In this document: one piece after another, positions 1 through 64,000 of the stretch
How positions within the stretch are numbered: position 1 is the first letter of the stretch
How the letters are laid out: the number at the start of each line of letters is the position of its first letter
DNA from: a virus
Taxonomy: Duplodnaviria > Caudoviricetes
IMG/VR virus record: IMGVR_UViG_3300021425_000032
Span: 1,562-65,561 of that record
Length of the DNA stretch: 64,000 nt
Reading direction: 5' to 3' (one strand)
Notes under the pieces: generated by a model
Seen by the model: only the letters and a program-made list of their open reading frames with translations
Told to the model about the DNA's origin: nothing
Databases searched by the model: none
Made by a program: the position numbers and the translations under genes

Positions 1-1098
1 GTTGAACACTTTGAATATAATAATACTAGAGCAGGTCAAGAACCTCAATATTTTAATAACCCTATTAGTAGAGTAAGTTGTCCTAAGTGGGATGTTGATG
101 ATCCTAGCATACATTTAAAAACAGCCAATATTACTCCTTGGAGAGAAGATTGGGAAGAATACTTAGACGAACTAGGTATAGATGTTTTTAAAATGCACGG
201 CCGTGAAGCAGTAAGTAGATTGTATGAAACAATGAATATTGTAAAACGTTGGGCATCAGGTGAACCATTACTATACGACAACTTTGAAAAATATTTAGAA
301 AGTACAAATCTTAAAGATAGGCCAATTGATGCTTGGCGTAAGAAAATTAAAAATTGTAAATTTGATTGTTGGGAATGCCATTTTTGTGATGACATTTACA
401 AAGTAAAATCTAAAATTGAACACACAGACAAAGTTAAGCATGTAGCAGAAAGCATATTAATAAGCGGTGTGCCAACTGTAAATACACGTATACCTGGACT
501 TACAAGTCCTAGAGTACAAACTGTATTAAATCATATTGCAAGCGGATCTACACATTACATGGAAGTGGGCGTAGCACAAGGTGCAACATTTTGTGGAGCA
601 ATTAAAGATAATAATTTAAATGCTGTAGCAATTGATGATTGGCAAAGTGATATACAACCTGCTGATCCAAATGCTCCAAGATTACCGCATAACGAAAAGG
701 CTAATTTCTTAAAAAACTTAGACAGTTACAAACAAGAAAATAATGTAGAAGTAATTGATAAAGATTTATTTGAAGCAGATGTGTCACAGTATAACGGTAA
801 GATAGACATGTGGTTTTATGACGGACCACACGATGCAACAAGTACTGAACAGGCTGTACTACATTATAAAAATGTGTTTGCTAAAGAGGCTGTGTTAATC
901 TTTGATGATGCAAATTGGCAAGGTGTAGTTGAAGGTGCAAGAACCGGTATTAACAAAGCAGGCTTTGAAGTTGCATATGAAAAGATGCTATTGTGTGACG
1001 TAGAAGATTTAGAAAGTTGGTGGAATGGTTTGTATGTTGTTGTACTTGCTAAACCAGAAGAAGAATTAATATCAATAATAGAGGAAGTAGAATGGTAA
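1..1098 (+). CDS. U32-family (peptidase U32-like Fe-S) domain fused to a class I SAM methyltransferase; 5'-truncated by the window edge
   Basis: Frame 1 is open from base 1. GIDVFKMHGRE matches the U32 GVDSLKIEGR-type motif, followed by Cys cluster CKFDCWECHFC, then MEVGVAQG and FYDGPH...LIFDD (Methyltransf_24-like). Confidence 0.7.
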   Translation, partial: VEHFEYNNTRAGQEPQYFNNPISRVSCPKWDVDDPSIHLKTANITPWREDWEEYLDELGIDVFKMHGREAVSRLYETMNIVKRWASGEPLLYDNFEKYLESTNLKDRPIDAWRKKIKNCKFDCWECHFCDDIYKVKSKIEHTDKVKHVAESILISGVPTVNTRIPGLTSPRVQTVLNHIASGSTHYMEVGVAQGATFCGAIKDNNLNAVAIDDWQSDIQPADPNAPRLPHNEKANFLKNLDSYKQENNVEVIDKDLFEADVSQYNGKIDMWFYDGPHDATSTEQAVLHYKNVFAKEAVLIFDDANWQGVVEGARTGINKAGFEVAYEKMLLCDVEDLESWWNGLYVVVLAKPEEELISIIEEVEW

Positions 1099-2600
1099 GA
1101 AAGATAGTTATATTTGGCGGCGGCACAAGCGGATGGCTTACAGCTGCTTACTTAACTAATAATTTAGTAGACCCTGTTGAAATACAACTAATTGAAGATG
1201 CTTCAAAAGGACCAATTGGTGTGGGAGAAGGAACACAACCACTTACGGCATCGTTCTTATACAAGTGTGGTATTAGTGCTAAAGACTGGATGAAGCCTAG
1301 TAATGCATCATTTAAATATGGTGTAGAATTAACAGGTTGGAATGACGAACCTTATTTTGTTGACAATGATGTAGTTGACAATGTTTTACCAGCACCTCAT
1401 CTTCCTGTAAGTAAATATTTTATTGACAAGCCGTATAGTGAATTTAAAAAGTGGCATCCTGCATATAGACTAGCAAAGAATAATACTGCTACAAAAATTG
1501 ATAGTGAAACTGATATTAATTTTAATGTAGGACTAGATAGTTACGGTGCTGTACATTTTAGTGCATACGATATTATTGATACAATTAAAAAGTTAATATT
1601 AGATAGAATTGATTACGTTGATACTAAGATCACACAAGTTGGTAATGATGCAACTGGTATAACTAAACTTATAGACGAAACTGGCAAAGAGTATACTGGA
1701 GACTTGTATATAGACTGTAGCGGATTTCAATCTTTGCTGTTAGGTAAAACTTTAAAAGAGCCGTATATAAGTTACAACAAATGGCTACTCAACGATAGTG
1801 CTGTTGCTATGCCAAAACAGTATACTGATCCGGAAGAAGAATGTTTTCCTTATACTAAAGCAACTACTATGAATGCTGGATGGAGATGGACTATTCCTAC
1901 ATACCATCGTATTGGTAACGGATATGTTTATAGTTCTAAACATATTACTCCTGAAGAAGCCGAGGCAGAATTACGTGAAGCAATTGGCGAATACGATGCT
2001 CCTGCAAATCATTTAAAAATGCGTATAGGCTCGCACGAAAATGTTGCTGTAAAAAATGTTCTTGCTGTAGGCCTTTCAGCTGGATTTATAGAACCCTTAG
2101 AAGCAACAGGTATTACATTTACTACAGCACTAGTTACATCTTTTGCTGACTTAATGAATCGTACAGGTAACGTGTGGGACGATGGACCAAAGTCGATGAT
2201 TAATAGAGGCTTTTATGAAATGAGTATAGAAATACTAACCTTCATATATGCACACTATTATTTTAGTAATAGAAATGACACACCATATTGGCAAGAAATA
2301 AGATCAAAGACATTAGACGAACTTCCGGCAGATGCTAGAATGATGATGAGTCAGTATTATCCTAAATTACAAGACTTTATATTCTTTACGCCTGGTAGTA
2401 TGTTTAGTAGTATTCAATGGTGGTCAATGTTACATGCAGGCGGTGCATATCCAAATGAAAAATGTGAGCTGTCAGAACAACAAAAGAAATATGTTGAACA
2501 CTTTATGAAAGTACAAGATGTAAGGGTTGATAGTGCCAAAGAGTTATTTGGCAATCACTATAAATTTTTAGATAAATGGTACAAAGAATGGCAAGAGTAA
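1092..2600 (+). CDS. Flavin-dependent halogenase (tryptophan halogenase family)
   Basis: GGGTSG FAD motif, IGVGEGT, FKYG lysine, IDCSG, WRWTIP (WxWxIP), FIEPLEATG. Confidence 0.9.
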   Translation: MVRKIVIFGGGTSGWLTAAYLTNNLVDPVEIQLIEDASKGPIGVGEGTQPLTASFLYKCGISAKDWMKPSNASFKYGVELTGWNDEPYFVDNDVVDNVLPAPHLPVSKYFIDKPYSEFKKWHPAYRLAKNNTATKIDSETDINFNVGLDSYGAVHFSAYDIIDTIKKLILDRIDYVDTKITQVGNDATGITKLIDETGKEYTGDLYIDCSGFQSLLLGKTLKEPYISYNKWLLNDSAVAMPKQYTDPEEECFPYTKATTMNAGWRWTIPTYHRIGNGYVYSSKHITPEEAEAELREAIGEYDAPANHLKMRIGSHENVAVKNVLAVGLSAGFIEPLEATGITFTTALVTSFADLMNRTGNVWDDGPKSMINRGFYEMSIEILTFIYAHYYFSNRNDTPYWQEIRSKTLDELPADARMMMSQYYPKLQDFIFFTPGSMFSSIQWWSMLHAGGAYPNEKCELSEQQKKYVEHFMKVQDVRVDSAKELFGNHYKFLDKWYKEWQE

Positions 2601-55782: not shown

Positions 55783-55937
55783 GAATAGGTGCATTACTGT
55801 TGTTTTGCGGATTATTTGCATACTCCTTAATGGTACTATACCAACATGAGTCACAGCCAAAAGACGTATACATTATACATGAGCCGAGCATAATTACAGT
55901 AGAAGAACTATCACCAATGAGGGCAGAGAACGAATGA
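55770..55937 (+). CDS. 55-aa membrane-anchored protein (not in the ORF track)
   Basis: MVQLRIGALLLFCGLFAYSLMVLY...; its TGA overlaps the helicase ATG. Confidence 0.55.
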   Translation: MVQLRIGALLLFCGLFAYSLMVLYQHESQPKDVYIIHEPSIITVEELSPMRAENE

Positions 55938-57893: not shown

Positions 57894-58159
57894 AGATCTA
57901 TTTGGGTCATATAGAATGCAAGTGGACACACAACGACCGACTAGAGTTGATATACTATCGTCAGAAGTACGGAGATGAACTCTATCGTGCTATTAATGTT
58001 GCAGGTGACATCACTCAAAGACGCTACAACTCACTAACACTGCCTGCGGACATGTACAAGCGTGTGGACTTTTATCTAACACCTGACTCAAGCAAAGCCG
58101 CAACACTGTTTATGCTGCGTTGGGCAGAACAATTGGATAAAGAACATGGGCCCATTTGA
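57890..58159 (+). CDS. Hypothetical protein
   Basis: ATGA overlap; ends in an FMLRW motif. Confidence 0.6.
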   Translation: MKIYLGHIECKWTHNDRLELIYYRQKYGDELYRAINVAGDITQRRYNSLTLPADMYKRVDFYLTPDSSKAATLFMLRWAEQLDKEHGPI

Positions 58160-58340
58160 ACTAGAACGACAGCGAGTTCGCAAACAACGACTAGAACGTA
58201 TAGCACGTGATCCTAGTCTTGATCCTCAAGTTGCTAGAATATGGCAACGTCTAGCTGACGAAGTGACCTTTGATGAAGCAGAATACAATCGAAGATGTGT
58301 GCAAATATTTCAGGGAAAGACTAGGGACAGGTTTTTCTAG
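58146..58340 (+). CDS. Hypothetical protein
   Basis: Overlaps the upstream ORF. Confidence 0.5.
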   Translation: MGPFELERQRVRKQRLERIARDPSLDPQVARIWQRLADEVTFDEAEYNRRCVQIFQGKTRDRFF

Positions 58341-58908
58341 CACTGCGTATAACTTCATAGTTGTTGGCCACAACAATTCCCATTACACCCGTTGCCTGTG
58401 CTAGTTCTTGATCACTAACAGTATTGATGTCTGAGTGTAGAGCATACAAAGGCAACAGTTTCAACAACAGCATTTGTTCTATACTGGGTTTTGCGGGCAA
58501 CAGAGGATTTTGTTCTTCTACACACTCGAAACGAGTGGTGGCATAGATAGTGCTGTAAACATCAAGAGCCTGTAGTAGATAGTATATGGTGATGTGACCC
58601 TTTGATGCAGGTTCTTTAAATTCAAATTCCGGCAGTATGGGCTTGCCAGTGTTGTACCAATCAACACCTATGTAGAGTTCATCACTCAATGGCGTACGAT
58701 CCTGCTGTATTGTGTAGAGGGGATCAAGCGTGTTGAATGTGTGTCTTACATCTGGTGGAGGTATATATATGTCATCTTCCGGTTGAGGTGCTGGTTCAAA
58801 CATCTGTTGAGGTTGTAGTTTGATGCCTGCTATGTAGAGTTCATTAGTTGATGAGTGTGCCACTGAGCTTAACAGTGTTAAGAATAGAATGATAGTCCCT
58901 CGTGCCAC
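58321..58908 (-). CDS. Secreted or membrane protein
   Basis: Signal-peptide-like N-terminus from the GTG at 58908 (TAAATA-TTAGT-GTG); LDVYST...EQNPLL. Confidence 0.6.
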   Translation of the reverse strand: MARGTIILFLTLLSSVAHSSTNELYIAGIKLQPQQMFEPAPQPEDDIYIPPPDVRHTFNTLDPLYTIQQDRTPLSDELYIGVDWYNTGKPILPEFEFKEPASKGHITIYYLLQALDVYSTIYATTRFECVEEQNPLLPAKPSIEQMLLLKLLPLYALHSDINTVSDQELAQATGVMGIVVANNYEVIRSARKTCP

Positions 58909-58927
58909 ACTAATATTTAGCAACGAA

Positions 58928-59005
58928 GCCCGCAAGGCCGCCGGCCAAAGCCGCGAAGCGGTTAACGCAAAAAGCGCGAAGCGCAAGCGATAGCGCAGCG
59001 GTTAA
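58928..59005. repeat. Cluster of GNA/GNNA mini-hairpins with an AGCGGTTAA direct repeat
   Basis: CCGC-GAA-GCGG, GCGC-GAA-GCGC, GC-GCAA-GC, GC-GATA-GC, GC-GCA-GC. Confidence 0.8.
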
Positions 59006-59218
59006 GCAGATTTTAGTATCAACATACACATGAACCTATAACGAACGTGTTTTGAACTAACCATAGCGACAGACGTCTATCAACGTGTTGCTTTCAGTCT
59101 AAAACAAAGGTTTGTAAAAAGATGACGTTTTAAAACTATATGTAGAGCGTGTATAACGTGTTTGTCACGCATACTAGCTCAAACGTAGCTATTAGTTCGT
59201 ATTCACGCTGTATGACGC

Positions 59219-59422
59219 TTATATGCACTCTAAGACGCCACTTCCTGTGTATGCTAGTGTAGCGTATGTACGTTCCTGTGCTGAGTCAAACACTAGTGTA
59301 CACGAGTCTGACTGTTCTGTGTATATACCACGTAGTAATAAGTCTGTAGCAAATGAAAATGTATTGATGTCTGCTATGTAATCTGTAACTGAGTCATCAT
59401 ATAGTATGTTGAGTAAATACAT
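59219..59422 (-). CDS. Hypothetical protein
   Basis: ATG at 59422 preceded by TAAGTA-N5. Confidence 0.5.
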   Translation of the reverse strand: MYLLNILYDDSVTDYIADINTFSFATDLLLRGIYTEQSDSCTLVFDSAQERTYATLAYTGSGVLECI

Positions 59423-59451
59423 ATAATTACTTAGCACAAAGGAACACTACT

Positions 59452-59619
59452 ATGTACACACTAGAACAACTGCATGCTTATCAACAGTGGATACAACATC
59501 AACAGGGTCATCCTACTGAGCCACAACACTTCCTTACCATTCTTATGAGAGACTTTGCTCTTACACACGGACAAGCACAAGCAGTGTACGATAGTCTAAG
59601 AGACTGGGAACTAAAGTAA
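59452..59619 (+). CDS. 55-aa hypothetical protein (not in the ORF track)
   Basis: TAAATA at 59414, AAGGA SD, MYTLEQLH...WELK*. Confidence 0.55.
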   Translation: MYTLEQLHAYQQWIQHQQGHPTEPQHFLTILMRDFALTHGQAQAVYDSLRDWELK

Positions 59620-59868
59620 TACTACTACCCAAGAGCTAAAGCTCTACACACTCGCTAGTCGCTTGTGTGTGCTTGCTTACGCTAGTAGTTGCCCGAAATG
59701 GGTTCTACAACCAAAAAAATTGGTCGCGCAAAAAATTGTGGTGAAGTACTTACAGAAGTGAGGTGGTGATTGCTACTGCACCGTTTTTTAAAAGTGTCCA
59801 TTAACGCTAAGTGCTTGTTTTTGTTAGATATTTTTTATAAGCCCCGACCCCCCTCGAGAAATAAAATT

Positions 59869-59898
59869 CAAAAAAAATCTCCCCGGAGGAAGATTTTT
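59869..59898 (-). terminator. Terminator of the leftward early region
   Basis: Minus strand reads AAAAATCTTCCTCCGGGGAGATTTTTTTT, a hairpin running into a T tract. Confidence 0.75.
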
Positions 59899-59958
59899 CT
59901 TTCTGTGTGTCCCCACAGTAGGTGCGGTCTTGCATACAGTGCCGCGTACTGTTGCAGA

Positions 59959-60309
59959 CTAGTCTAGTCGACTGCCTGCATAAGCTGTAAAGCCGTAGCC
60001 TTCTAGCACTCTAGCATAGGCTCTAGCACCAGCTTCTTTAATGCTAATGCTCTGCCCACCGTACCAGTTGCACCATTGGCTAAACACTCTGTTCCAGTTC
60101 TGGTCTATGCCAGCCTGCTTAAGAGCCTTGCCCATTTTGGTATTGCCCTTGAGCTTCTTACCATCATGTGCGTAGATGTCTACCCACGCAAAGCCACACG
60201 CATCCCAGTCCGAGTTACCGTTCTGTTGATATGCTTGCTCGCTTGCATTTACAGCCGCTTGCTGTGCTTTGTTTAGGATTACAGTTAGATCGTTTACAGT
60301 GTAGTTCAT
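59959..60309 (-). CDS. Early hypothetical protein
   Basis: DACGFAWV, QSISIKE; own promoter and GAGGGC RBS. Confidence 0.8.
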   Translation of the reverse strand: MNYTVNDLTVILNKAQQAAVNASEQAYQQNGNSDWDACGFAWVDIYAHDGKKLKGNTKMGKALKQAGIDQNWNRVFSQWCNWYGGQSISIKEAGARAYARVLEGYGFTAYAGSRLD

Positions 60310-60334
60310 ATTGTTTGCCCTCGCTATGTTTAAC

Positions 60335-60658
60335 TTACTCTACTAGTATAGCACCTTCGTGTGCATTGTCAACCCCTAATTCGCTGATTGACTCTATCTT
60401 TTTGTCTACAGTGTATGCACTATCAGTGTCTAGATATGCATCGTGTGCCAGTGCTTCTGCTTGTGCTTCTGAAGTTGCTGTGACTGTGACCACATGATGT
60501 TCTGTGATTGTTACCTGAACTTCATACTCTTGTCCTGGAATAGTGCCGTCTCCACCACATGCCCAACAGTCTTCTTCTAAGCCGTCTTGTTCATAGTACG
60601 TGTCGAGGTCGTAGCCTTCACCACAACACTCAACACACTCAACCTTTGGTGTAGCCAT
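60335..60658 (-). CDS. Early protein with DnaJ-type CxxCxGxG zinc motifs
   Basis: CVECCGEG and CWACGGDG. Confidence 0.75.
   Translation of the reverse strand: MATPKVECVECCGEGYDLDTYYEQDGLEEDCWACGGDGTIPGQEYEVQVTITEHHVVTVTATSEAQAEALAHDAYLDTDSAYTVDKKIESISELGVDNAHEGAILVE
60345..60381 (-). promoter_or_regulatory. Early promoter 1
   Basis: AATTAGGGG-TTGACA-16nt-TATACT with TGn extension. Confidence 0.85.
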
Positions 60659-61050
60659 TAAGCCATCACCGATGTTGTTGAAAAAGTCTGTGCATCAACT
60701 ATGTCATAGCTGATTGGCTCACAAGGTTCAAAGCCAAAGCCTGCTACCTCGAACCAGTCTTGGAAGCCTTCACCGTCGTCTACGATCATCACATCGCCAA
60801 CGCTTGTGCTTCTTAGGCCATAAGCCTTGCCGTTGTGTTGGATAAGGGGAGCAATGACTTCTACATCATCGTTCGCATCAGCACCGATCTTCATGCTCCA
60901 GCTACCATCAACATTGTTGGTGTATCTGTAGGCATACTCAGTGGCTTCAAAAAGATCCATGCCTGAGGTTGTTACCTTTGCAACAGCCTTAGGAGTTTCG
61001 CCCTCTTCTAAGAAACTTGCATGGATTACGGTTATAGTAAAGTTTTTCAT
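60658..61050 (-). CDS. Early hypothetical protein
   Basis: RSTSVGDV, VAGFGF; GAGGGC RBS. Confidence 0.8.
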   Translation of the reverse strand: MKNFTITVIHASFLEEGETPKAVAKVTTSGMDLFEATEYAYRYTNNVDGSWSMKIGADANDDVEVIAPLIQHNGKAYGLRSTSVGDVMIVDDGEGFQDWFEVAGFGFEPCEPISYDIVDAQTFSTTSVMA

Positions 61051-61084
61051 ATTGTGCCCTCACACTTTAATTTAATATACTGCT

Positions 61085-61122
61085 AGTATAGCCTCAAACT
61101 CTCTCGTTGTCAACCCCTAATT
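61085..61122 (-). promoter_or_regulatory. Early promoter 2
   Basis: AATTAGGGG-TTGACA-17nt-TATACT. Confidence 0.85.
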
Positions 61123-61124
61123 TT

Positions 61125-61159
61125 AAAAAAGAAAAACCCCGCACGAGGCGAGGTTCTTC
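61125..61159 (-). terminator. Rho-independent terminator
   Basis: Minus strand GAAGAACCTCGC-CTCGT-GCGGGGTTTTTC-TTTTTT. Confidence 0.8.
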
Positions 61160-61290
61160 CCGGTGACATGCAGAGCGTGAGGGCTACGCTTGATCTGCTC
61201 CACCTAGGCTCGTGGATGAGGGCGGTCCACTTGCCTTAACGACCACTTGGGGAGGGCACCCGTTAGTGGTCATGTGCTGTGAGAGGAGCA
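61125..61290 (-). ncRNA. Candidate multi-hairpin regulatory RNA with three GCCCUC (GAGGGC on +) loops; strand not certain
   Basis: GAGGGC at 61179, 61218 and 61252, each enclosed by a different stem; ends in a minus-strand terminator. Confidence 0.6.
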
Positions 61291-62301
61291 TTAGGATGCT
61301 CTACTCATCACAGTATTCTCTGCCATTGCTTCCCACTTGGTAGGAAATGCTTTGGCCAAGTCGGCTATCTTAAGTACTGAACGCAAGCTCAGCTCCCTCA
61401 GCTTAGACTTGTTGATATCGATGTAGTCGATGATGTCTTGTACAGTTTCTTCTGGCAAGCCATACTCGTCTAGCATTCCGTCAGTAACGATCTGCTTGAT
61501 ACGCAGCATCTTCTCACGGTCTGTGTCAATAGTCAAGTCAATGTAGTGACATCTACTTTCTAGTGCTTCTAGGTGATCACGCATCTTCTTGCTCTTAACG
61601 TTTTCAAACTTGATGTTGGTGATAAAGATTGCACCACCTTTGAACTCGAATGAATCCGGCACACCTTCGTTTCTCAACTTGAATGAATCAGTGTTCCAAT
61701 GGATACGTCTAGTCTTCTTAGAGTCTAGCGCAGCTTTTAGGATGTTCAGTGATAGTTCATCTGAGAACACTGAGTCACAGTCATCGAACACCAGTACATT
61801 GTCTTTGTCTGCGTAGTTGAACAGTTTACAGTAGAGTCCAATAGCACTCATAGCACCTTTGACCACCTGATACTTCGCAGGACGATCTCCTAAGGTTGCA
61901 ATTAATTCATGTGCGCCTAGTACTTTTTCGACACCATGTGACTTACCTACACCCGGAGGACCTGAAACAATCATTGCACGTACATCACCTCGCTTGCAGG
62001 CTTTGGTCATGTCTTCGAGCATGTCGAATCGTTCGCGCAATCTTTCGATTGTCTCTTCGTCGGTCTCCTCACGGGTGGTGGTGGCCACGGAGCTATCAAC
62101 CAGCTCGTAGCTTGACGGGCTATCACACTTGATCTTAATATTTCGATCAGGGAAGCCTGCTACCGCAGTACCATCGACTGTGACGTAGCCACCACCGGCG
62201 CCAACCTTAAATTCAGATACCATAGGAAATACCATTCCTGTCATATCAACGTCTTTGCCTCTAATTTTGTAGAAGCCCTCTTTCATCTTTACTTTTTGCA
62301 T
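61291..62301 (-). CDS. AAA+ P-loop ATPase
   Basis: GPPGVGKS, LVFDDCD, IFITN, LESRC; start moved to MQKV at 62301 (GAGGGC RBS). Confidence 0.88.
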   Translation of the reverse strand: MQKVKMKEGFYKIRGKDVDMTGMVFPMVSEFKVGAGGGYVTVDGTAVAGFPDRNIKIKCDSPSSYELVDSSVATTTREETDEETIERLRERFDMLEDMTKACKRGDVRAMIVSGPPGVGKSHGVEKVLGAHELIATLGDRPAKYQVVKGAMSAIGLYCKLFNYADKDNVLVFDDCDSVFSDELSLNILKAALDSKKTRRIHWNTDSFKLRNEGVPDSFEFKGGAIFITNIKFENVKSKKMRDHLEALESRCHYIDLTIDTDREKMLRIKQIVTDGMLDEYGLPEETVQDIIDYIDINKSKLRELSLRSVLKIADLAKAFPTKWEAMAENTVMSRAS

Positions 62302-62337
62302 AGTTTTGCCCTCTCGCAATGTTTAATTTATATACAC

Positions 62338-62366
62338 AGTATATGATATATCTGTGCGCCTGTCAA
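62338..62366 (-). promoter_or_regulatory. Early promoter 3
   Basis: TTGACA-17nt-TATACT. Confidence 0.85.
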
Positions 62367-62539
62367 CCAAAAATCTTACCAAATAACCAAAAAAATCCTA
62401 TGAAGCCTCCAAGTGCTATTGCGCCATACATGAAACTGTAGAAGCATTGCACCAGGAACGGTATCCGGGTGTTACAAGCGTGACACTTGCTCGCAAAGAA
62501 CTCTTTGTCAGTCTTGAAACACGCCGGACACAAAGCCAT
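62363..62539 (-). CDS. 58-aa zinc-ribbon plus transmembrane protein (not in the ORF track)
   Basis: MALCPAC...KCHAC...GAIALGGFIGFFWLFG; TAATG overlap with the upstream gene. Confidence 0.65.
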   Translation of the reverse strand: MALCPACFKTDKEFFASKCHACNTRIPFLVQCFYSFMYGAIALGGFIGFFWLFGKIFG

Positions 62540-62913
62540 TATGCAAATTCCTTATCGAGCGTCTCTTGGTCGACATCTTCGAACACAGGTGCTTGTGGAA
62601 AGCCTGCTTCGAACGCCGTATCAATTGCCGCTTGTGGAACCACTACTGGCTCTGGTGCTTGATACCTTTTGAAGTACCTCACTGGACATGTATCCCAGTT
62701 CTTGCCTTCCTTGATCTGCACAGTGTTGCCCAGTGCTTCTTGCGCCTTGACATAAGTCACAGCGTCTTGGTCTTCTTCTAGATAAGTGGTCTTACCTTTG
62801 TAGAATGAATAAGATGTAATCTTATCCGCGATACCGAGCTCGACGAGCTCTTTTGTTTTTACAGCCAGCCAGCCATGTCCGCCATCTGAATGCATCATTT
62901 TAGTGATTATCAT
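62539..62913 (-). CDS. Early hypothetical protein
   Basis: HSDGGHGWLAV, YLEED.D. Confidence 0.8.
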   Translation of the reverse strand: MIITKMMHSDGGHGWLAVKTKELVELGIADKITSYSFYKGKTTYLEEDQDAVTYVKAQEALGNTVQIKEGKNWDTCPVRYFKRYQAPEPVVVPQAAIDTAFEAGFPQAPVFEDVDQETLDKEFA

Positions 62914-63245
62914 ACTGATACTCCCTTCGTTATGTTGCGACCAGTTTCAGGAGACACCACCATAGCTGTCTTCTTGACGAAGTCAGCATAGTCTTGGTCC
63001 TCTGGGAGGTCGTTAACCCATTCCTCGAATGTCTTCACATCCGTTGGAAACTCTTTAAAGCCTAGGCCATTATCTGCGAAAGCAGCCATAACGAATGCCA
63101 TTGCATCCGCAGGACGATCGACGCCGTCCACGATGTAGTCGGAACCACCCTTGAACTTCCAGTATGAATGCCCCTCGGCATACTTACCTGACTCACAATG
63201 TGCGCCATAGTTCTCAAGAATTTGTGTTGTTACTACGAATTTCAT
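62910..63245 (-). CDS. Early hypothetical protein
   Basis: TQ..ENYGAH, YWKFKGG; GAGGGT RBS. Confidence 0.8.
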   Translation of the reverse strand: MKFVVTTQILENYGAHCESGKYAEGHSYWKFKGGSDYIVDGVDRPADAMAFVMAAFADNGLGFKEFPTDVKTFEEWVNDLPEDQDYADFVKKTAMVVSPETGRNITKGVSV

Positions 63246-63283
63246 TTGCTACCCTCTTTATCGTTTGCCCTAACTATACATAC

Positions 63284-63320
63284 AGTATAGCATCAATTAT
63301 CTCTTTGTCAACCCCTATTT
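63284..63320 (-). promoter_or_regulatory. Early promoter 4
   Basis: AAATAGGGG-TTGACA-16nt-TATACT with TGn extension. Confidence 0.85.
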
Positions 63321-63506
63321 CACCCAAACGTGGTGAAATTTCTTAGGCATATTCTCACATGAGAAGTTCGTGTCGCCGTAGTTGACCACCTCTACACATG
63401 CACCTGTCTCATAAGACATATGTACATCTGGAAGTGAAAATGTGTAGTCCACTGCGTATAGTAGACCAGCCGTTGCTATTAGTGTTACTGCTATGATTGT
63501 TTTCAT
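63315..63506 (-). CDS. Small membrane-anchored early protein
   Basis: Hydrophobic N-terminus; GAGGGC RBS. Confidence 0.7.
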   Translation of the reverse strand: MKTIIAVTLIATAGLLYAVDYTFSLPDVHMSYETGACVEVVNYGDTNFSCENMPKKFHHVWVK

Positions 63507-63537
63507 TGCGTTGCCCTCGCTTTCATATTATGTGTAT

Positions 63538-63575
63538 ACTATAGCACAGCCCAAATGATTTGTCAACCCCTAATT
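63538..63575 (-). promoter_or_regulatory. Early promoter 5
   Basis: AATTAGGGG-TTGACA-17nt-TATAGT with TGn extension. Confidence 0.8.
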
Positions 63576-63877
63576 TAGGCATTCTGTGACACAAAATACC
63601 TAGGGTATTCTGTGTTCTTTTTTAAGAACCAACGCTCTAGCACAGGACCACCCTCGTCCTCGTCTACTATAATATAGCACACGGTCTTCTTGACATTCGC
63701 ATAGCGATATCCTTGCTGTCCACCTATTTGGCGGTCACCTACCCAAACGATGTGCGGGTAGTATTCGCGATTGCCTTCGAACGCAGGACAGTCATTGACT
63801 GAATACTCAAATGAGTTGCCCACTTCTTTTTCAACAAAGCATCCAATTGGATCTCTGGTGTAGGTGTAGTAACCCAT
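63575..63877 (-). CDS. Early hypothetical protein
   Basis: GAGGAGG SD; VKKTV.YI.VDED. Confidence 0.75.
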   Translation of the reverse strand: MGYYTYTRDPIGCFVEKEVGNSFEYSVNDCPAFEGNREYYPHIVWVGDRQIGGQQGYRYANVKKTVCYIIVDEDEGGPVLERWFLKKNTEYPRYFVSQNA

Positions 63878-64000
63878 TACACTTCCTCCTCATCATGAAA
63901 GTTTGCATCATCATCGCTGAAGTCTTCTACAAGCTCTTCTACTTCGCGGCCTTCTGCGAACAACATCAACTCTACGGCTAACATACGAGCCTGATGACGA
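63877..64000 (-). CDS. C-terminal end of a gene that starts beyond the window
   Basis: Open frame RHQARMLAVELM...DEEEV*, with the stop overlapping the next ATG. Confidence 0.6.
   Translation of the reverse strand, partial: RHQARMLAVELMLFAEGREVEELVEDFSDDDANFHDEEEV

What the first reader, a model, noticed from the sequence alone, without database searches (positions are those of the whole stretch)
61125..61290. Candidate phage multi-loop sRNA matched to the GAGGGC ribosome-binding motif of the early genes
Seen: the gap after the AAA ATPase holds three hairpins with unrelated stems but the same loop. On the + strand they read AGCGT-GAGGGCT-ACGCT (61174-61190), GTGGAT-GAGGGCG-GTCCAC (61212-61230, extended by AGGC/GCCT) and GACCACT.GGG-GAGGGCA-CCC...AGTGGTC (61241-61271). 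A fourth small hairpin, TGCT-GTGAGAGG-AGCA, is at 61275-61290, and a minus-strand terminator at 61125-61159. The same hexamer is the RBS of four neighbouring early genes. Inference, model A: the minus-strand 3'-UTR RNA shows GCCCUC loops complementary to those RBSs, and the fourth loop (CCUCUC) complements the AAA gene's own GAGAGG, giving a multivalent antisense shut-off of early translation. Terminator polarity supports A. Model B: a + strand RNA shows uniform 7-nt GAGGGCN loops and sponges an RBS-binding repressor, as CsrB/RsmZ do with GGA loops for CsrA/RsmA. Two G-U pairs that form only on + support B. I know no described family with this loop, but could not search.
Basis: partly seen in the sequence, partly recalled or inferred. 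Interest (0 to 1): 0.9.

Follow-up and report, generated by a model that had tools for sequence, protein, structure and literature searches.

The report
Phage hairpin RNA mirroring early ribosome sites
Behind an early ATPase gene, this uncultured marine phage carries three RNA hairpins whose exposed loops are the exact complement of a private ribosome-site tag on its early genes, and a sister group has changed loop and tag together, so the two probably base-pair to control early protein synthesis, though no experiment has tested this.

Summary
Window 61125-61300 (minus strand) holds three hairpins with (U)GCCCUC loops and an intrinsic terminator, in the 3' UTR of an AAA+ ATPase gene. Five near-consensus sigma-70 early promoters each precede a gene with a GAGGG(C/T)A ribosome-site tag.

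Seventy of 80 related viral loci have the same kind of array behind the same gene. Stems differ and covary, and loops are kept (54-unit alignment: covariation 0.676 against 0.223 in shuffles).

In the main clade the loops read UGCCCUC, and 278 of 367 early leaders hold AGGGC. In a sister clade of 10 loci the loops read AUUCGCUCC, and 61 of 78 leaders hold GGAGC (37 GGAGCG). More distant homologues have neither loops nor tags. This joint switch is one event on the tree.

Strand polarity comes from context. A T-run follows 14 of 71 hairpins; an A-run precedes 0. No Rfam family matches, and four full-text searches found no description.

Best reading (about 0.6): a 3'-UTR-borne anti-tag RNA that pairs with tagged early leaders, most likely repressing them. 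The closest analogues are cuckoo/CcsR RNAs and P1 c4 RNA. Transcript ends, strand and effect are untested.

This scan already reported the same element in at least 8 other genomes.

The parts
62338..62366 (-). Early promoter of the AAA transcription unit (TTGACA-17-TATACT)
   Evidence: 11 of 12 consensus matches. It is one of five such minus-strand promoters between 60345 and 63566.
62308..62314 (-). Ribosome-site tag GAGGGCA of the AAA gene (ATG at 62301)
   Evidence: the leader reads GCGAGAGGGCAAAACUAUG.
61291..62301 (-). AAA+ ATPase gene (phrog_1250, T4 NrdC.10-like), 336 aa from the ATG at 62301
   Evidence: phrog_1250, E 8.9e-83. AAA_16, below the curated cut-off; homologues annotated nrdC.10 in T4-like phages; model pLDDT 86.7 with a generic AAA+ fold (ORC/Cdc6, RFC, NorQ, RuvB).
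61275..61300 (-). Stop-codon-proximal small hairpin, structure uncertain (AGCAU/AUGCU or UGCU/AGCA), followed by CCUCUCAC
   Evidence: Searches give different pairings. In many relatives the equivalent hairpin overlaps the stop codon and carries GCCCUC in its loop. In this window it does not.
61241..61271 (-). Hairpin 1: outer stem GACCACU/AGUGGUC, inner stem GGG/CCC, loop UGCCCU(C)
   Evidence: P unpaired 0.85. Homologous units in L001, L015, L054, L058 and L069 have fully different outer stems.
61206..61236 (-). Hairpin 2: stems GGCA..UGCC-like and GUGGA/UCCAC, loop CCGCCCUCA
   Evidence: P unpaired 0.98. Ten unique units of this type, with other stems, occur in relatives.
61170..61198 (-). 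Hairpin 3: GCAGA..UCUGC outer stem, AGCGU/ACGCU inner stem, loop AGCCCUC
   Evidence: P unpaired 0.93. It is the top hit of unit model R1 in the window, although not significant (E 2.5).
61125..61159 (-). Intrinsic terminator of the AAA unit (GC-rich stem, then UUUUUCUUUUUU)
61085..61113 (-). Next early promoter (TTGACA-17-TATACT)
61056..61062 (-). Tag GAGGGCA of the gene starting at 61050
   Evidence: Loop-leader duplex -13.7 kcal/mol.
60317..60323 (-). Tag GAGGGCA of the gene starting at 60309 (promoter 60345-60372)
   Evidence: Duplex -13.4.
63513..63519 (-). Tag GAGGGCA of the gene starting at 63506 (promoter 63538-63566)
   Evidence: Duplex -13.4.
63251..63256 (-). Variant tag GAGGGU of the gene starting at 63245 (promoter 63284-63311)
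   Evidence: Duplex -11.3.
55919..55925 (+). GAGGGCA 9 nt before the start of the DnaB-like helicase gene (55934); no early-type promoter upstream
   Evidence: Duplex -13.8, the lowest of 74 leaders. Whether it is a target is open.

Best explanation
The three hairpins form the 3' untranslated end of the early AAA+ ATPase transcript, read on the minus strand from the promoter at 62366 to the terminator at 61125-61159. Each hairpin holds (U)GCCCUC unpaired in its loop. This word is the exact complement of the tag (G)AGGGCA, which sits where a Shine-Dalgarno sequence would sit in the leader of the first gene behind each early promoter. I propose that the array, either as part of the AAA message or as a stable 3' fragment, pairs through its loops with these tagged leaders. 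In that way one RNA would control translation of the whole promoter-proximal early class. The most likely effect is to occlude the ribosome site, giving negative feedback or early shut-off.

Shown here: the structure and its conservation, the loop-tag complementarity, their joint switch in a sister clade, and the polarity of the terminators.

Inferred: that the pairing happens in the cell, the direction of its effect, and any processing into a small RNA.
For: 1. Conservation with covariation.
- Within -15 to +450 nt of the AAA gene's end, the 80 loci plus the window hold 182 GCCCTC words on the AAA-sense strand, 152 of them unique.
- 44% of 150 unique array words have a flanking stem of 5 or more pairs. 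The figure is 14% of 370 for the same word on the other strand and 16% of 57 for sense-strand words elsewhere.
- In an ungapped alignment of 54 units, 74.3% of cells pair (shuffles 48.6%). The covariation score is 0.676 (shuffles 0.223, 0 of 500 as high; slid partners 0.09-0.22). Nine of 10 pairs change on both sides, while GCCCTC is invariant.

2. One locus per genome, always behind the AAA gene.
- Of 163 sense-strand words with a stem of 4 or more pairs in the 80 loci, 130 lie within 300 nt after the gene.
- In five large relatives (101-357 kb, one rated 100% complete), all 5 hits of the unit model at E <= 1 lie 34-159 nt after the AAA gene. Two of the five records had no hit.

3. Loop and tag go together.
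- 62 loci have GCCCTC loops and mostly GAGGG(C/T) leaders. 10 loci have TCGCTCC loops and GGAGC leaders. 3 distant loci have neither loop type, and the two that have a detected leader carry no tag.
- Main clade: 278 of 367 unique leaders hold AGGGC, and 1 holds GGAGCG. Sister clade: 0 of 78 hold AGGGC, 61 hold GGAGC and 37 hold GGAGCG.
- The sister loop AUUCGCUCC is complementary to GGAGCGAA over 8 nt.
- Two further distant homologues (48-51% identity) have no array and ordinary leaders.

4. Accessibility and specificity in this window.
- The loops are unpaired with P 0.85-0.98.
- Among 74 gene leaders, six give loop duplexes of -11.3 to -13.8 kcal/mol: the five early cassettes and the DnaB-like gene. 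The next best is -9.6 and the median is -3.8.

5. Strand. A T-run follows 14 of 71 unique loop-bearing hairpins, and an A-run precedes 0 of 71. In the sister clade the anti-tag loop sits in the terminator hairpin itself.

6. RNA libraries. Contigs from three studies join the 3' end of the AAA gene to relatives' GCCCUC-loop hairpins (tables 7 and 8).

7. A subclade (L036, L063) has lost most tags, keeps one GCCCUC loop, and has leaders with a local ACUCC..GGAGAU complement instead. That fits a replaceable function of masking the ribosome site.
Against: - No experiment exists, and no strand-resolved transcript was seen. The laid runs are contigs, which show neither strand, ends nor level, and RNA libraries can contain DNA.
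- The loop-tag switch is a single event on the AAA tree: 3 label changes in all, one of them an artefact of my 300-nt search window. 'Covariation' between clades therefore rests on two complementary pairs plus joint absence, not on many independent events.
- Within the main clade there is no finer covariation. Loci rich in AAGGGCA tags mostly keep GCCCUC loops.
- The uniform tag may also reflect copying of a promoter-leader cassette of the PeSL kind, rather than selection for pairing.
- Folding energy does not clearly favour the sense strand: 32 against 20 of 52 arrays, p 0.053. Wobble pairs in unselected stem positions are balanced, 33 against 31.
- The first three pairs of the 54-unit alignment were a selection criterion.
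- The unit model is too short to give significant hits in this window (E 2.5 and 3.9).
- The array is transcribed from an early promoter, together with its proposed targets. Timing therefore does not by itself explain a shut-off.
Confidence: 0.6

Rival explanations
1. The pairing is real but its effect is positive or protective. Loops bound to the tags would shield early leaders from nucleases, hold them until ribosomes are free, or bring early messages together, rather than repressing them.
For: This rival shares the structural and covariation evidence of the best explanation. The array is made at the same time as its targets, from an early promoter, which fits a helper as well as a brake.
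Against: Pairing covers the only Shine-Dalgarno-like element of the leaders, 5-9 nt from the start codon. In the analogues I read about, this blocks initiation: the cuckoo-family paper states that C-rich loops are signatures of repression by pairing with the ribosome site, and c4 RNA blocks translation. The L036/L063 leaders appear to mask their own site in cis.
Confidence: 0.15
2. The hairpins are binding sites for an RNA-binding protein, such as the AAA+ ATPase encoded upstream, an Hfq/ProQ-like chaperone or a processing nuclease. On this view the complementarity to the tags is incidental.
For: An invariant loop on variable stems is also the signature of protein-recognised hairpins. The array is strictly linked to one gene. 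In the CcsR system the protein encoded upstream binds the hairpin RNAs (abstract of PMC8034643). The sister-clade loop is conserved over 9-11 nt, more than minimal pairing needs.
Against: Two different loops, each the exact complement of its own clade's tag over 7 and 8 nt, are hard to put down to chance. The AAA+ model shows only a generic AAA+ fold with no recognised RNA-binding domain. A protein partner may still exist alongside the pairing.
Confidence: 0.1
3. The hairpins are only terminator and 3'-end stability elements of repeated promoter-terminator cassettes (PeSL-like). The shared word spread by recombination between cassettes and has no function of its own.
For: The window has five near-identical early promoter-leader cassettes. 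PeSLs are defined as a stem-loop plus a sigma-70-like promoter, a Shine-Dalgarno sequence and a start codon, and they mediate shuffling in T4-like phages (PMC4122927 passages). Some loop-bearing hairpins are themselves terminators.
Against: Recombination would copy stems together with loops, yet the stems differ while the loops are kept. The word in the loops is the reverse complement of the cassette word, not a copy of it. Arrays of 2-5 hairpins occur only behind the AAA gene, although there are dozens of cassettes.
Confidence: 0.07
4. A plus-strand RNA shows GAGGGCN loops and titrates a factor that binds the early ribosome sites, as CsrB/RsmZ do for CsrA.
For: In this window two G-U pairs form only on the plus strand. 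The 10 units of the CCGCCCUCA type have a C-A mismatch on the AAA-sense strand that would be a G-U pair on the other strand.
Against: No consensus plus-strand promoter reads into the region. The plus-strand fold is no better than shuffles (z -1.22). 0 of 71 hairpins has terminator polarity on that strand, against 14 on the other. 40 of 54 units of the main type close with U-G on the AAA-sense strand, which is C-A on the other. The loops have no GGA word.
Confidence: 0.04
5. This is a DNA-level element: single-stranded DNA hairpins, or a duplex-binding protein that recognises the word GAGGGCA in either orientation at leaders and in the array.
For: A duplex-binding protein would see the same word at tags and loops, and a change in its specificity would change both together.
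Against: A duplex binder does not explain selection for base-pairing of flanks that vary in sequence. The position between a stop codon and a terminator, and the loops inside terminator hairpins, point to RNA.
Confidence: 0.04

Closest known systems
Cuckoo RNAs / CcsR1-4 (RSs0680, SmelA075/A099, SmelC397) of Alphaproteobacteria
   Same: They have two to four adjacent hairpins, each loop carrying the same C-rich, anti-Shine-Dalgarno-like word. Their stems are highly variable with many compensatory changes (PMC4615179, passages read). [quoted passage not shown]
   Different: Their loop word is CCUCCUCCC, not GCCCUC or AUUCGCUCC. They are chromosomal or plasmid genes of bacteria with host targets. 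Here a phage carries the array, and the loops match a private tag on the phage's own early genes, with a matching change in a sister clade. No Rfam model matches.
c4 antisense RNA of phages P1 and P7
   Same: It is a phage-encoded RNA whose loop sequences pair around the ribosome binding site of a phage message and block translation (review PMC12197685, passages read). From recall, P1 and P7 differ by matched changes in loops and targets, which gives heteroimmunity.
   Different: c4 is a single small RNA acting on one operon of a temperate phage. Here an array of repeated loops faces dozens of tagged leaders in a lytic-type myovirus, and there is no sequence relation.
Staphylococcus aureus RNAIII and Rsa RNAs with UCCC loops
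   Same: Several hairpin loops of one RNA carry the same C-rich word and start pairing with the ribosome sites of several messages (as summarised in PMC4615179).
   Different: Those are host regulators with a 4-nt motif and extended, target-specific pairing. Here the complement is an exact 7-8 nt match to a uniform tag.
PeSL promoter-terminator cassettes of T4-like phages
   Same: The flanking architecture matches: a stem-loop, then a near-consensus sigma-70 early promoter, a Shine-Dalgarno sequence and a start codon, repeated in a variable early region (PMC4122927, passages read; PMC2839356, search listing only).
   Different: The PeSL passages I read describe stems, promoters and a role in recombination. 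They do not describe a loop word complementary to the ribosome site, nor multi-hairpin arrays behind one gene.
T4 RegA (translational repressor) and RegB (nuclease cutting GGAG in early Shine-Dalgarno sites)
   Same: They are a functional analogy only, and recalled rather than taken from a call: phage-encoded switches that act on the ribosome sites of early messages as a class.
   Different: They are proteins. Their Pfam families were not found in this record or four relatives, though the search had no positive control.

Membership tests
Cuckoo / CcsR RNA family | Two to four adjacent hairpins of similar size | tested here: met
   There are three hairpins plus a terminator in the window, and 1-5 GCCCTC words behind the AAA gene in relatives.
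Cuckoo / CcsR RNA family | Each loop carries CCUCCUCCC (PMC4615179) | tested here: not met
   The loops read UGCCCUC, CCGCCCUCA and AGCCCUC. The sister clade reads AUUCGCUCC.
Cuckoo / CcsR RNA family | Match to a curated RNA family model | tested here: not met
   Rfam 15 gives 0 matches at gathering score in the whole window. The best sub-threshold match in 61050-61350 is rnk_pseudo, 22.8 bits against a gathering score of 55. I did not check which Rfam accessions hold the cuckoo RNAs.
Cuckoo / CcsR RNA family | Encoded by Alphaproteobacteria | tested here: not met
   The record is a viral contig with tail sheath, terminase and UvsX-like genes.
   The plus-strand loops read GAGGGCU, GAGGGCG and GAGGGCA and contain no GGA. 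No consensus plus-strand promoter or terminator was found.
PeSL cassette (for the flanks, not the array) | A stem-loop just upstream of a sigma-70-like early promoter, followed by a Shine-Dalgarno sequence and a start codon, repeated in the genome | tested here: met
   Five minus-strand promoters score 11 of 12, each followed by a tagged leader. The upstream stem-loop was checked only for the cassette at 61085-61159.
Intrinsic (Rho-independent) terminator | A GC-rich hairpin followed by a U-run on the transcribed strand | tested here: met
   Position 61125-61159 on the minus strand.
3'-UTR-derived small RNA | A stable RNA species with a processed 5' end that shares the parent message's terminator | not testable with these tools
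   Only contigs of RNA libraries could be laid. They show neither ends nor strand.

The most novel reading that the evidence does not exclude
These phages run a private, orthogonal 'tag and anti-tag' layer of translational control. One 3'-UTR RNA with repeated loops addresses the whole promoter-proximal early regulon through a leader word that the host does not use in this way. Different phage clades have re-coded the pair (UGCCCUC with GAGGGCA; AUUCGCUCC with GGAGCGAA). This would be an RNA counterpart of the T4 RegA/RegB early switch, and a natural set of orthogonal riboregulators.
Probability: 0.45. Interest if true: 0.85.

Novelty: new variant of a known kind. Interest (0 to 1): 0.72.

Why it matters
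If the pairing is real, a whole temporal class of phage genes is controlled after transcription by one small RNA element, through a sequence tag that the phage itself defines. Class-wide control of early messages is known in T4, where proteins carry it out. Multi-loop anti-ribosome-site RNAs are known in bacteria. A phage combining the two, with clade-specific re-coding of the pair, has not been described in the literature I could search.

The element is widespread. 136 related stretches were found in IMG/VR, 80 were examined, and relatives appear in metatranscriptome libraries from salt marsh and marine samples. So it may shape infection dynamics of abundant uncultured large phages.

It is also directly testable with synthetic leaders and arrays in a laboratory host, and it offers naturally orthogonal regulator-target pairs.

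Tried and rejected
- Known RNA families. Rfam at gathering score over the whole window gave nothing. The permissive search of 61050-61350 gave only sub-threshold matches driven by the terminator. ARAGORN found no tRNA or tmRNA.
- Cultured relatives. blastn of 60600-62400 against 50,697 phage records gave no match. tblastn of the AAA protein found 1307 records, all below 60% identity. In PA5oct the next gene starts 44 nt after the homologue, so there is no room for an array.
- Unit covariance model R1. In this window its two best hits are array units on the minus strand, but they are not significant (E 2.5 and 3.9), and chance hits score nearly as well.
- Strand from thermodynamics. This was inconclusive: 32 against 20 of 52 arrays, p 0.053.
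- Strand from wobble pairs. There was no signal in unselected positions (33 against 31). A count over all registers (127 against 55) is biased by my choice of register and I do not use it.
- First hairpin counters. One search was too lax: 155 of 415 antisense words also passed. One search was too strict and undercounted. They were replaced.
- Whole-array duplexfold against leaders. It ignores internal structure and was uninformative (second part). It was replaced by loop-only duplexes.
- Finer loop-tag covariation inside the main clade. None was found. GCCCUU loops occur in L012 and in L050/L051/L060 (which share identical AAA proteins), and they do not track AAGGGCA-rich leaders.
- Self-regulation of the AAA message. 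Its own leader carries the tag no more often than others do: 40 of 48, against 45 of 55 for the next gene and 276 of 345 for the rest.
- RegA and RegB Pfam families. There were no hits in this record or four relatives, but nothing rang in the controls either, so absence is not shown.
- Function of the AAA protein. It has only a generic AAA+ fold, which gives no clue to a link with RNA.
- Host. Relatives of the AAA gene lie on short contigs binned into MAGs labelled Flavobacteriaceae, Crocinitomicaceae, Lishizhenia and Roseicyclus. The labels conflict and are probably binning artefacts, and the TTGACA/TATACT promoters would be unusual for Bacteroidota (my recollection). No host is claimed.
- RNA libraries. 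In the four runs laid, nothing covered 60600-61148, and cover of 61149-61270 was slight. These are contigs, so this says nothing about expression, and depth was not used to rank parts.
- Complex prediction, the search of protein representatives, the search for homologous proteins and the protein atlas were not used, because the question is about RNA.
- Supplementary files of papers were closed. None bears on a claim made here.
Full report
**What is there**

The window is bases 1562-65561 of a single 65,561-base viral record. CheckV rates the record 18% complete. It carries tail sheath, terminase, UvsX-like and DnaB-like genes, so it is a fragment of a large myovirus.

From about 58 kb to the end of the window the G+C content rises from about 36% to 43-46%, and the genes run on the minus strand. 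There, five near-consensus sigma-70 promoters (TTGACA, 16-17 nt, TATACT or TATAGT; 11 of 12 matches each) lie at 63566, 63311, 62366, 61113 and 60372. Each is followed by a short A-rich leader and a gene whose ribosome site reads GAGGGCA, or GAGGGU in one case.

The third unit encodes a 336-aa AAA+ ATPase (phrog_1250, E 8.9e-83; T4 NrdC.10-like). Its predicted structure (pLDDT 86.7) shows only a generic AAA+ fold.

Three hairpins lie between this gene's stop codon (61291-61293) and an intrinsic terminator (61125-61159). Read on the transcribed (minus) strand, their loops are UGCCCUC, CCGCCCUCA and AGCCCUC.

**Is it more than chance?**

The count of GAGGGC in the window is unremarkable (10 against 7.9 expected). 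Its placement is not: all ten copies lie in the last 8 kb of the record. Three are in the loops within 80 nt, four are at early ribosome sites, and one is in front of the DnaB-like gene.

The minus-strand RNA folds better than all of 200 shuffles (z -3.83). The plus strand does not stand out (z -1.22). The three loop words are unpaired with probability 0.85-0.98, against 0.40 for the RNA as a whole.

**Relatives**

A scan of IMG/VR with the AAA protein found 136 related stretches, and 80 were kept (56-92% identity).

- In 69 of them by my first count, GCCCTC words lie just behind the gene on its sense strand. The true number is 70. The one apparent exception, L049, has the array displaced by a roughly 650-nt insertion that encodes a SegE-like GIY-YIG endonuclease on the other strand.
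- Counting the window as well, there are 182 words and 152 unique units.
- The words sit at the 3' side of hairpin loops, on stems that differ from phage to phage.
- A flanking stem of 5 or more pairs is present in 44% of 150 unique array words. It is present in 14-16% of the same word elsewhere or on the other strand.
- For the commonest unit type (54 unique units), the alignment is ungapped and GCCCTC is invariant. 74.3% of cells pair (shuffles 48.6%). The covariation score is 0.676, against 0.223 in shuffles (0 of 500 reach it) and 0.09-0.22 with slid partners.
- The innermost three pairs were my selection criterion. The outer seven were not.

The array is a single locus. Of 163 sense-strand words with a stem of at least 4 pairs in the 80 loci, 130 lie within 300 nt after the AAA gene. 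In five large relatives (101-357 kb), all five hits of the unit model at E <= 1 lie 34-159 nt after that gene, and two records gave no hit.

**Loops and tags**

I collected 530 leaders behind TTGAC-type promoters in the 80 loci and the window.

- Main clade: 278 of 367 unique leaders hold AGGGC, 227 hold GAGGGC, and 1 holds GGAGCG.
- Sister clade: in ten loci whose AAA proteins form one clade (SH-aLRT 98), the hairpins behind the gene carry AUUCGCUCC instead. There are 18 unique units, 17 of them in the array. Here 0 of 78 leaders hold AGGGC, 61 hold GGAGC and 37 hold GGAGCG.

So UGCCCUC faces GAGGGCA over 7 nt, and AUUCGCUCC faces GGAGCGAA over 8 nt.

Three more distant loci (L068, L070, L078) have neither loop type, and the two with a detected leader carry no tag. 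The same holds for two homologues of 48-51% identity found in genome bins.

Locus by locus, the table reads as follows (81 in all):
- 62 matched pairs of the first kind;
- 10 matched pairs of the second kind;
- 3 with loops but no detected leader;
- 3 with neither loop type, 2 of them with a detected, untagged leader (none/tie) and 1 with no detected leader;
- 3 apparent mismatches.

Two of the mismatches (L015, L017) have AAGGGCA or AGGGGCA leaders that my first tag definition missed. The third is L049.

I stress that on the tree this is one switch plus joint absence, not many independent events. Inside the main clade I found no finer co-change.

A subclade (L036, L063) has one GCCCUC loop left and only one tagged leader. 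Its other leaders carry a local ACUCC..GGAGAU complement.

**In this window**

Loop-only duplexes single out six of 74 leaders, at -11.3 to -13.8 kcal/mol. These are the five early cassettes and the DnaB-like gene at 55934, which has no early promoter. The next best leader is -9.6 and the median is -3.8.

The AAA gene's own leader is tagged no more often than others across the family (40 of 48, against 276 of 345). I therefore see no special case for self-regulation.

**Strand**

Folding energies (32 against 20 of 52 arrays; p 0.053) and wobble pairs in unselected positions (33 against 31) do not decide the strand. Context does:
- The array lies between a stop codon and a terminator of the same strand.
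- A T-run follows 14 of 71 unique loop-bearing hairpins, and an A-run precedes none.
- In the sister clade the loop sits in the terminator hairpin itself.
- No consensus plus-strand promoter faces the region.

**RNA data**

Twenty-four runs hold parts of the stretch, 21 of them on record as RNA. I laid four metatranscriptomes, all held as contigs.

- Contigs identical to this phage cover parts of the AAA gene. One example spans 61859-62326 with no differences.
- Contigs of relatives from three studies run from the 3' end of the AAA gene into their own GCCCUC-loop hairpins. Their loose ends are 69-255 letters long and contain GAGGGC on the plus strand (tables 7 and 8).

This is compatible with co-transcription. 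It shows neither strand, ends nor level, and RNA libraries can contain DNA.

**Mechanism**

I conclude that the hairpins are a conserved RNA structure at the 3' end of the early AAA message. Their loops most probably pair with the tagged leaders of the promoter-proximal early genes. Because the tag is the only Shine-Dalgarno-like element of these leaders, the likeliest effect is to block initiation, as a brake or shut-off of the early class. A protective or activating role is not excluded. A protein partner may also exist.

**Known relatives in kind**

- Cuckoo/CcsR RNAs have the same build: 2-4 hairpins, an identical C-rich loop word and free stems (PMC4615179 passages). [quoted passage not shown] Their word is CCUCCUCCC, and they are bacterial.
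- P1/P7 c4 RNA is a phage RNA whose loops pair at a ribosome site (PMC12197685 passages).
- The flanking promoter-leader cassettes resemble PeSLs (PMC4122927 passages).

No Rfam family matches. Four full-text searches found no description of this element: the tag word with 'phage' and 'Shine-Dalgarno'; the loop word with 'phage' and 'loop'; phage-encoded small RNAs with early genes and ribosome sites; and cuckoo or anti-Shine-Dalgarno terms.

**Earlier notes of this scan**

The same element was reported in at least eight other genomes, with the same reading and the same closest analogue. I took the two cuckoo/CcsR paper identifiers from those notes and read them myself. All counts here are from my own calls.

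Noticed in passing
L049:2189-2794 (minus strand of the locus): A 201-aa SegE-like GIY-YIG homing endonuclease gene (PF19835, E 4.6e-07; NUMOD3) is inserted between the AAA stop codon and the hairpin array. The last bases of the AAA gene are duplicated on both sides of the insertion. The array continues intact after it.
   Followed up: partly
L036 and L063, leaders listed: In this subclade most early leaders read AACUCC-N5-6-(A/G)GGAGAUCC, which is a local complement of their own Shine-Dalgarno sequence. The array behind the AAA gene is reduced to one GCCCUC loop and one GCCCCUC loop.
   Followed up: partly
window 58000-64000: G+C content is 43-46% here, against about 33-40% over most of the rest of the record. 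This coincides with the minus-strand early-cassette region at the end of the contig.
   Followed up: no
window 55919-55925 (+): The DnaB-like helicase gene lies on the other strand and has no early-type promoter. Even so, it carries GAGGGCA 9 nt before its start codon and gives the lowest loop-leader duplex energy of 74 leaders.
   Followed up: partly
window 61000-61005 and 62275-62280 (-): Two further GAGGGC words lie inside coding sequence. One is about 25 nt into the AAA gene and the other about 45 nt into the gene starting at 61050.
   Followed up: no
L082-L085: Relatives of the AAA gene lie on short contigs binned into MAGs labelled Flavobacteriaceae, Crocinitomicaceae, Lishizhenia and Roseicyclus. 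L082 has a three-loop GCCCUC array. The host labels conflict and are probably binning artefacts.
   Followed up: partly
window 1092-2600 (+): A 502-aa protein matches a PHROG annotated as tryptophan halogenase (phrog_2928, E 8.1e-100). This is an unusual auxiliary gene for a phage.
   Followed up: no
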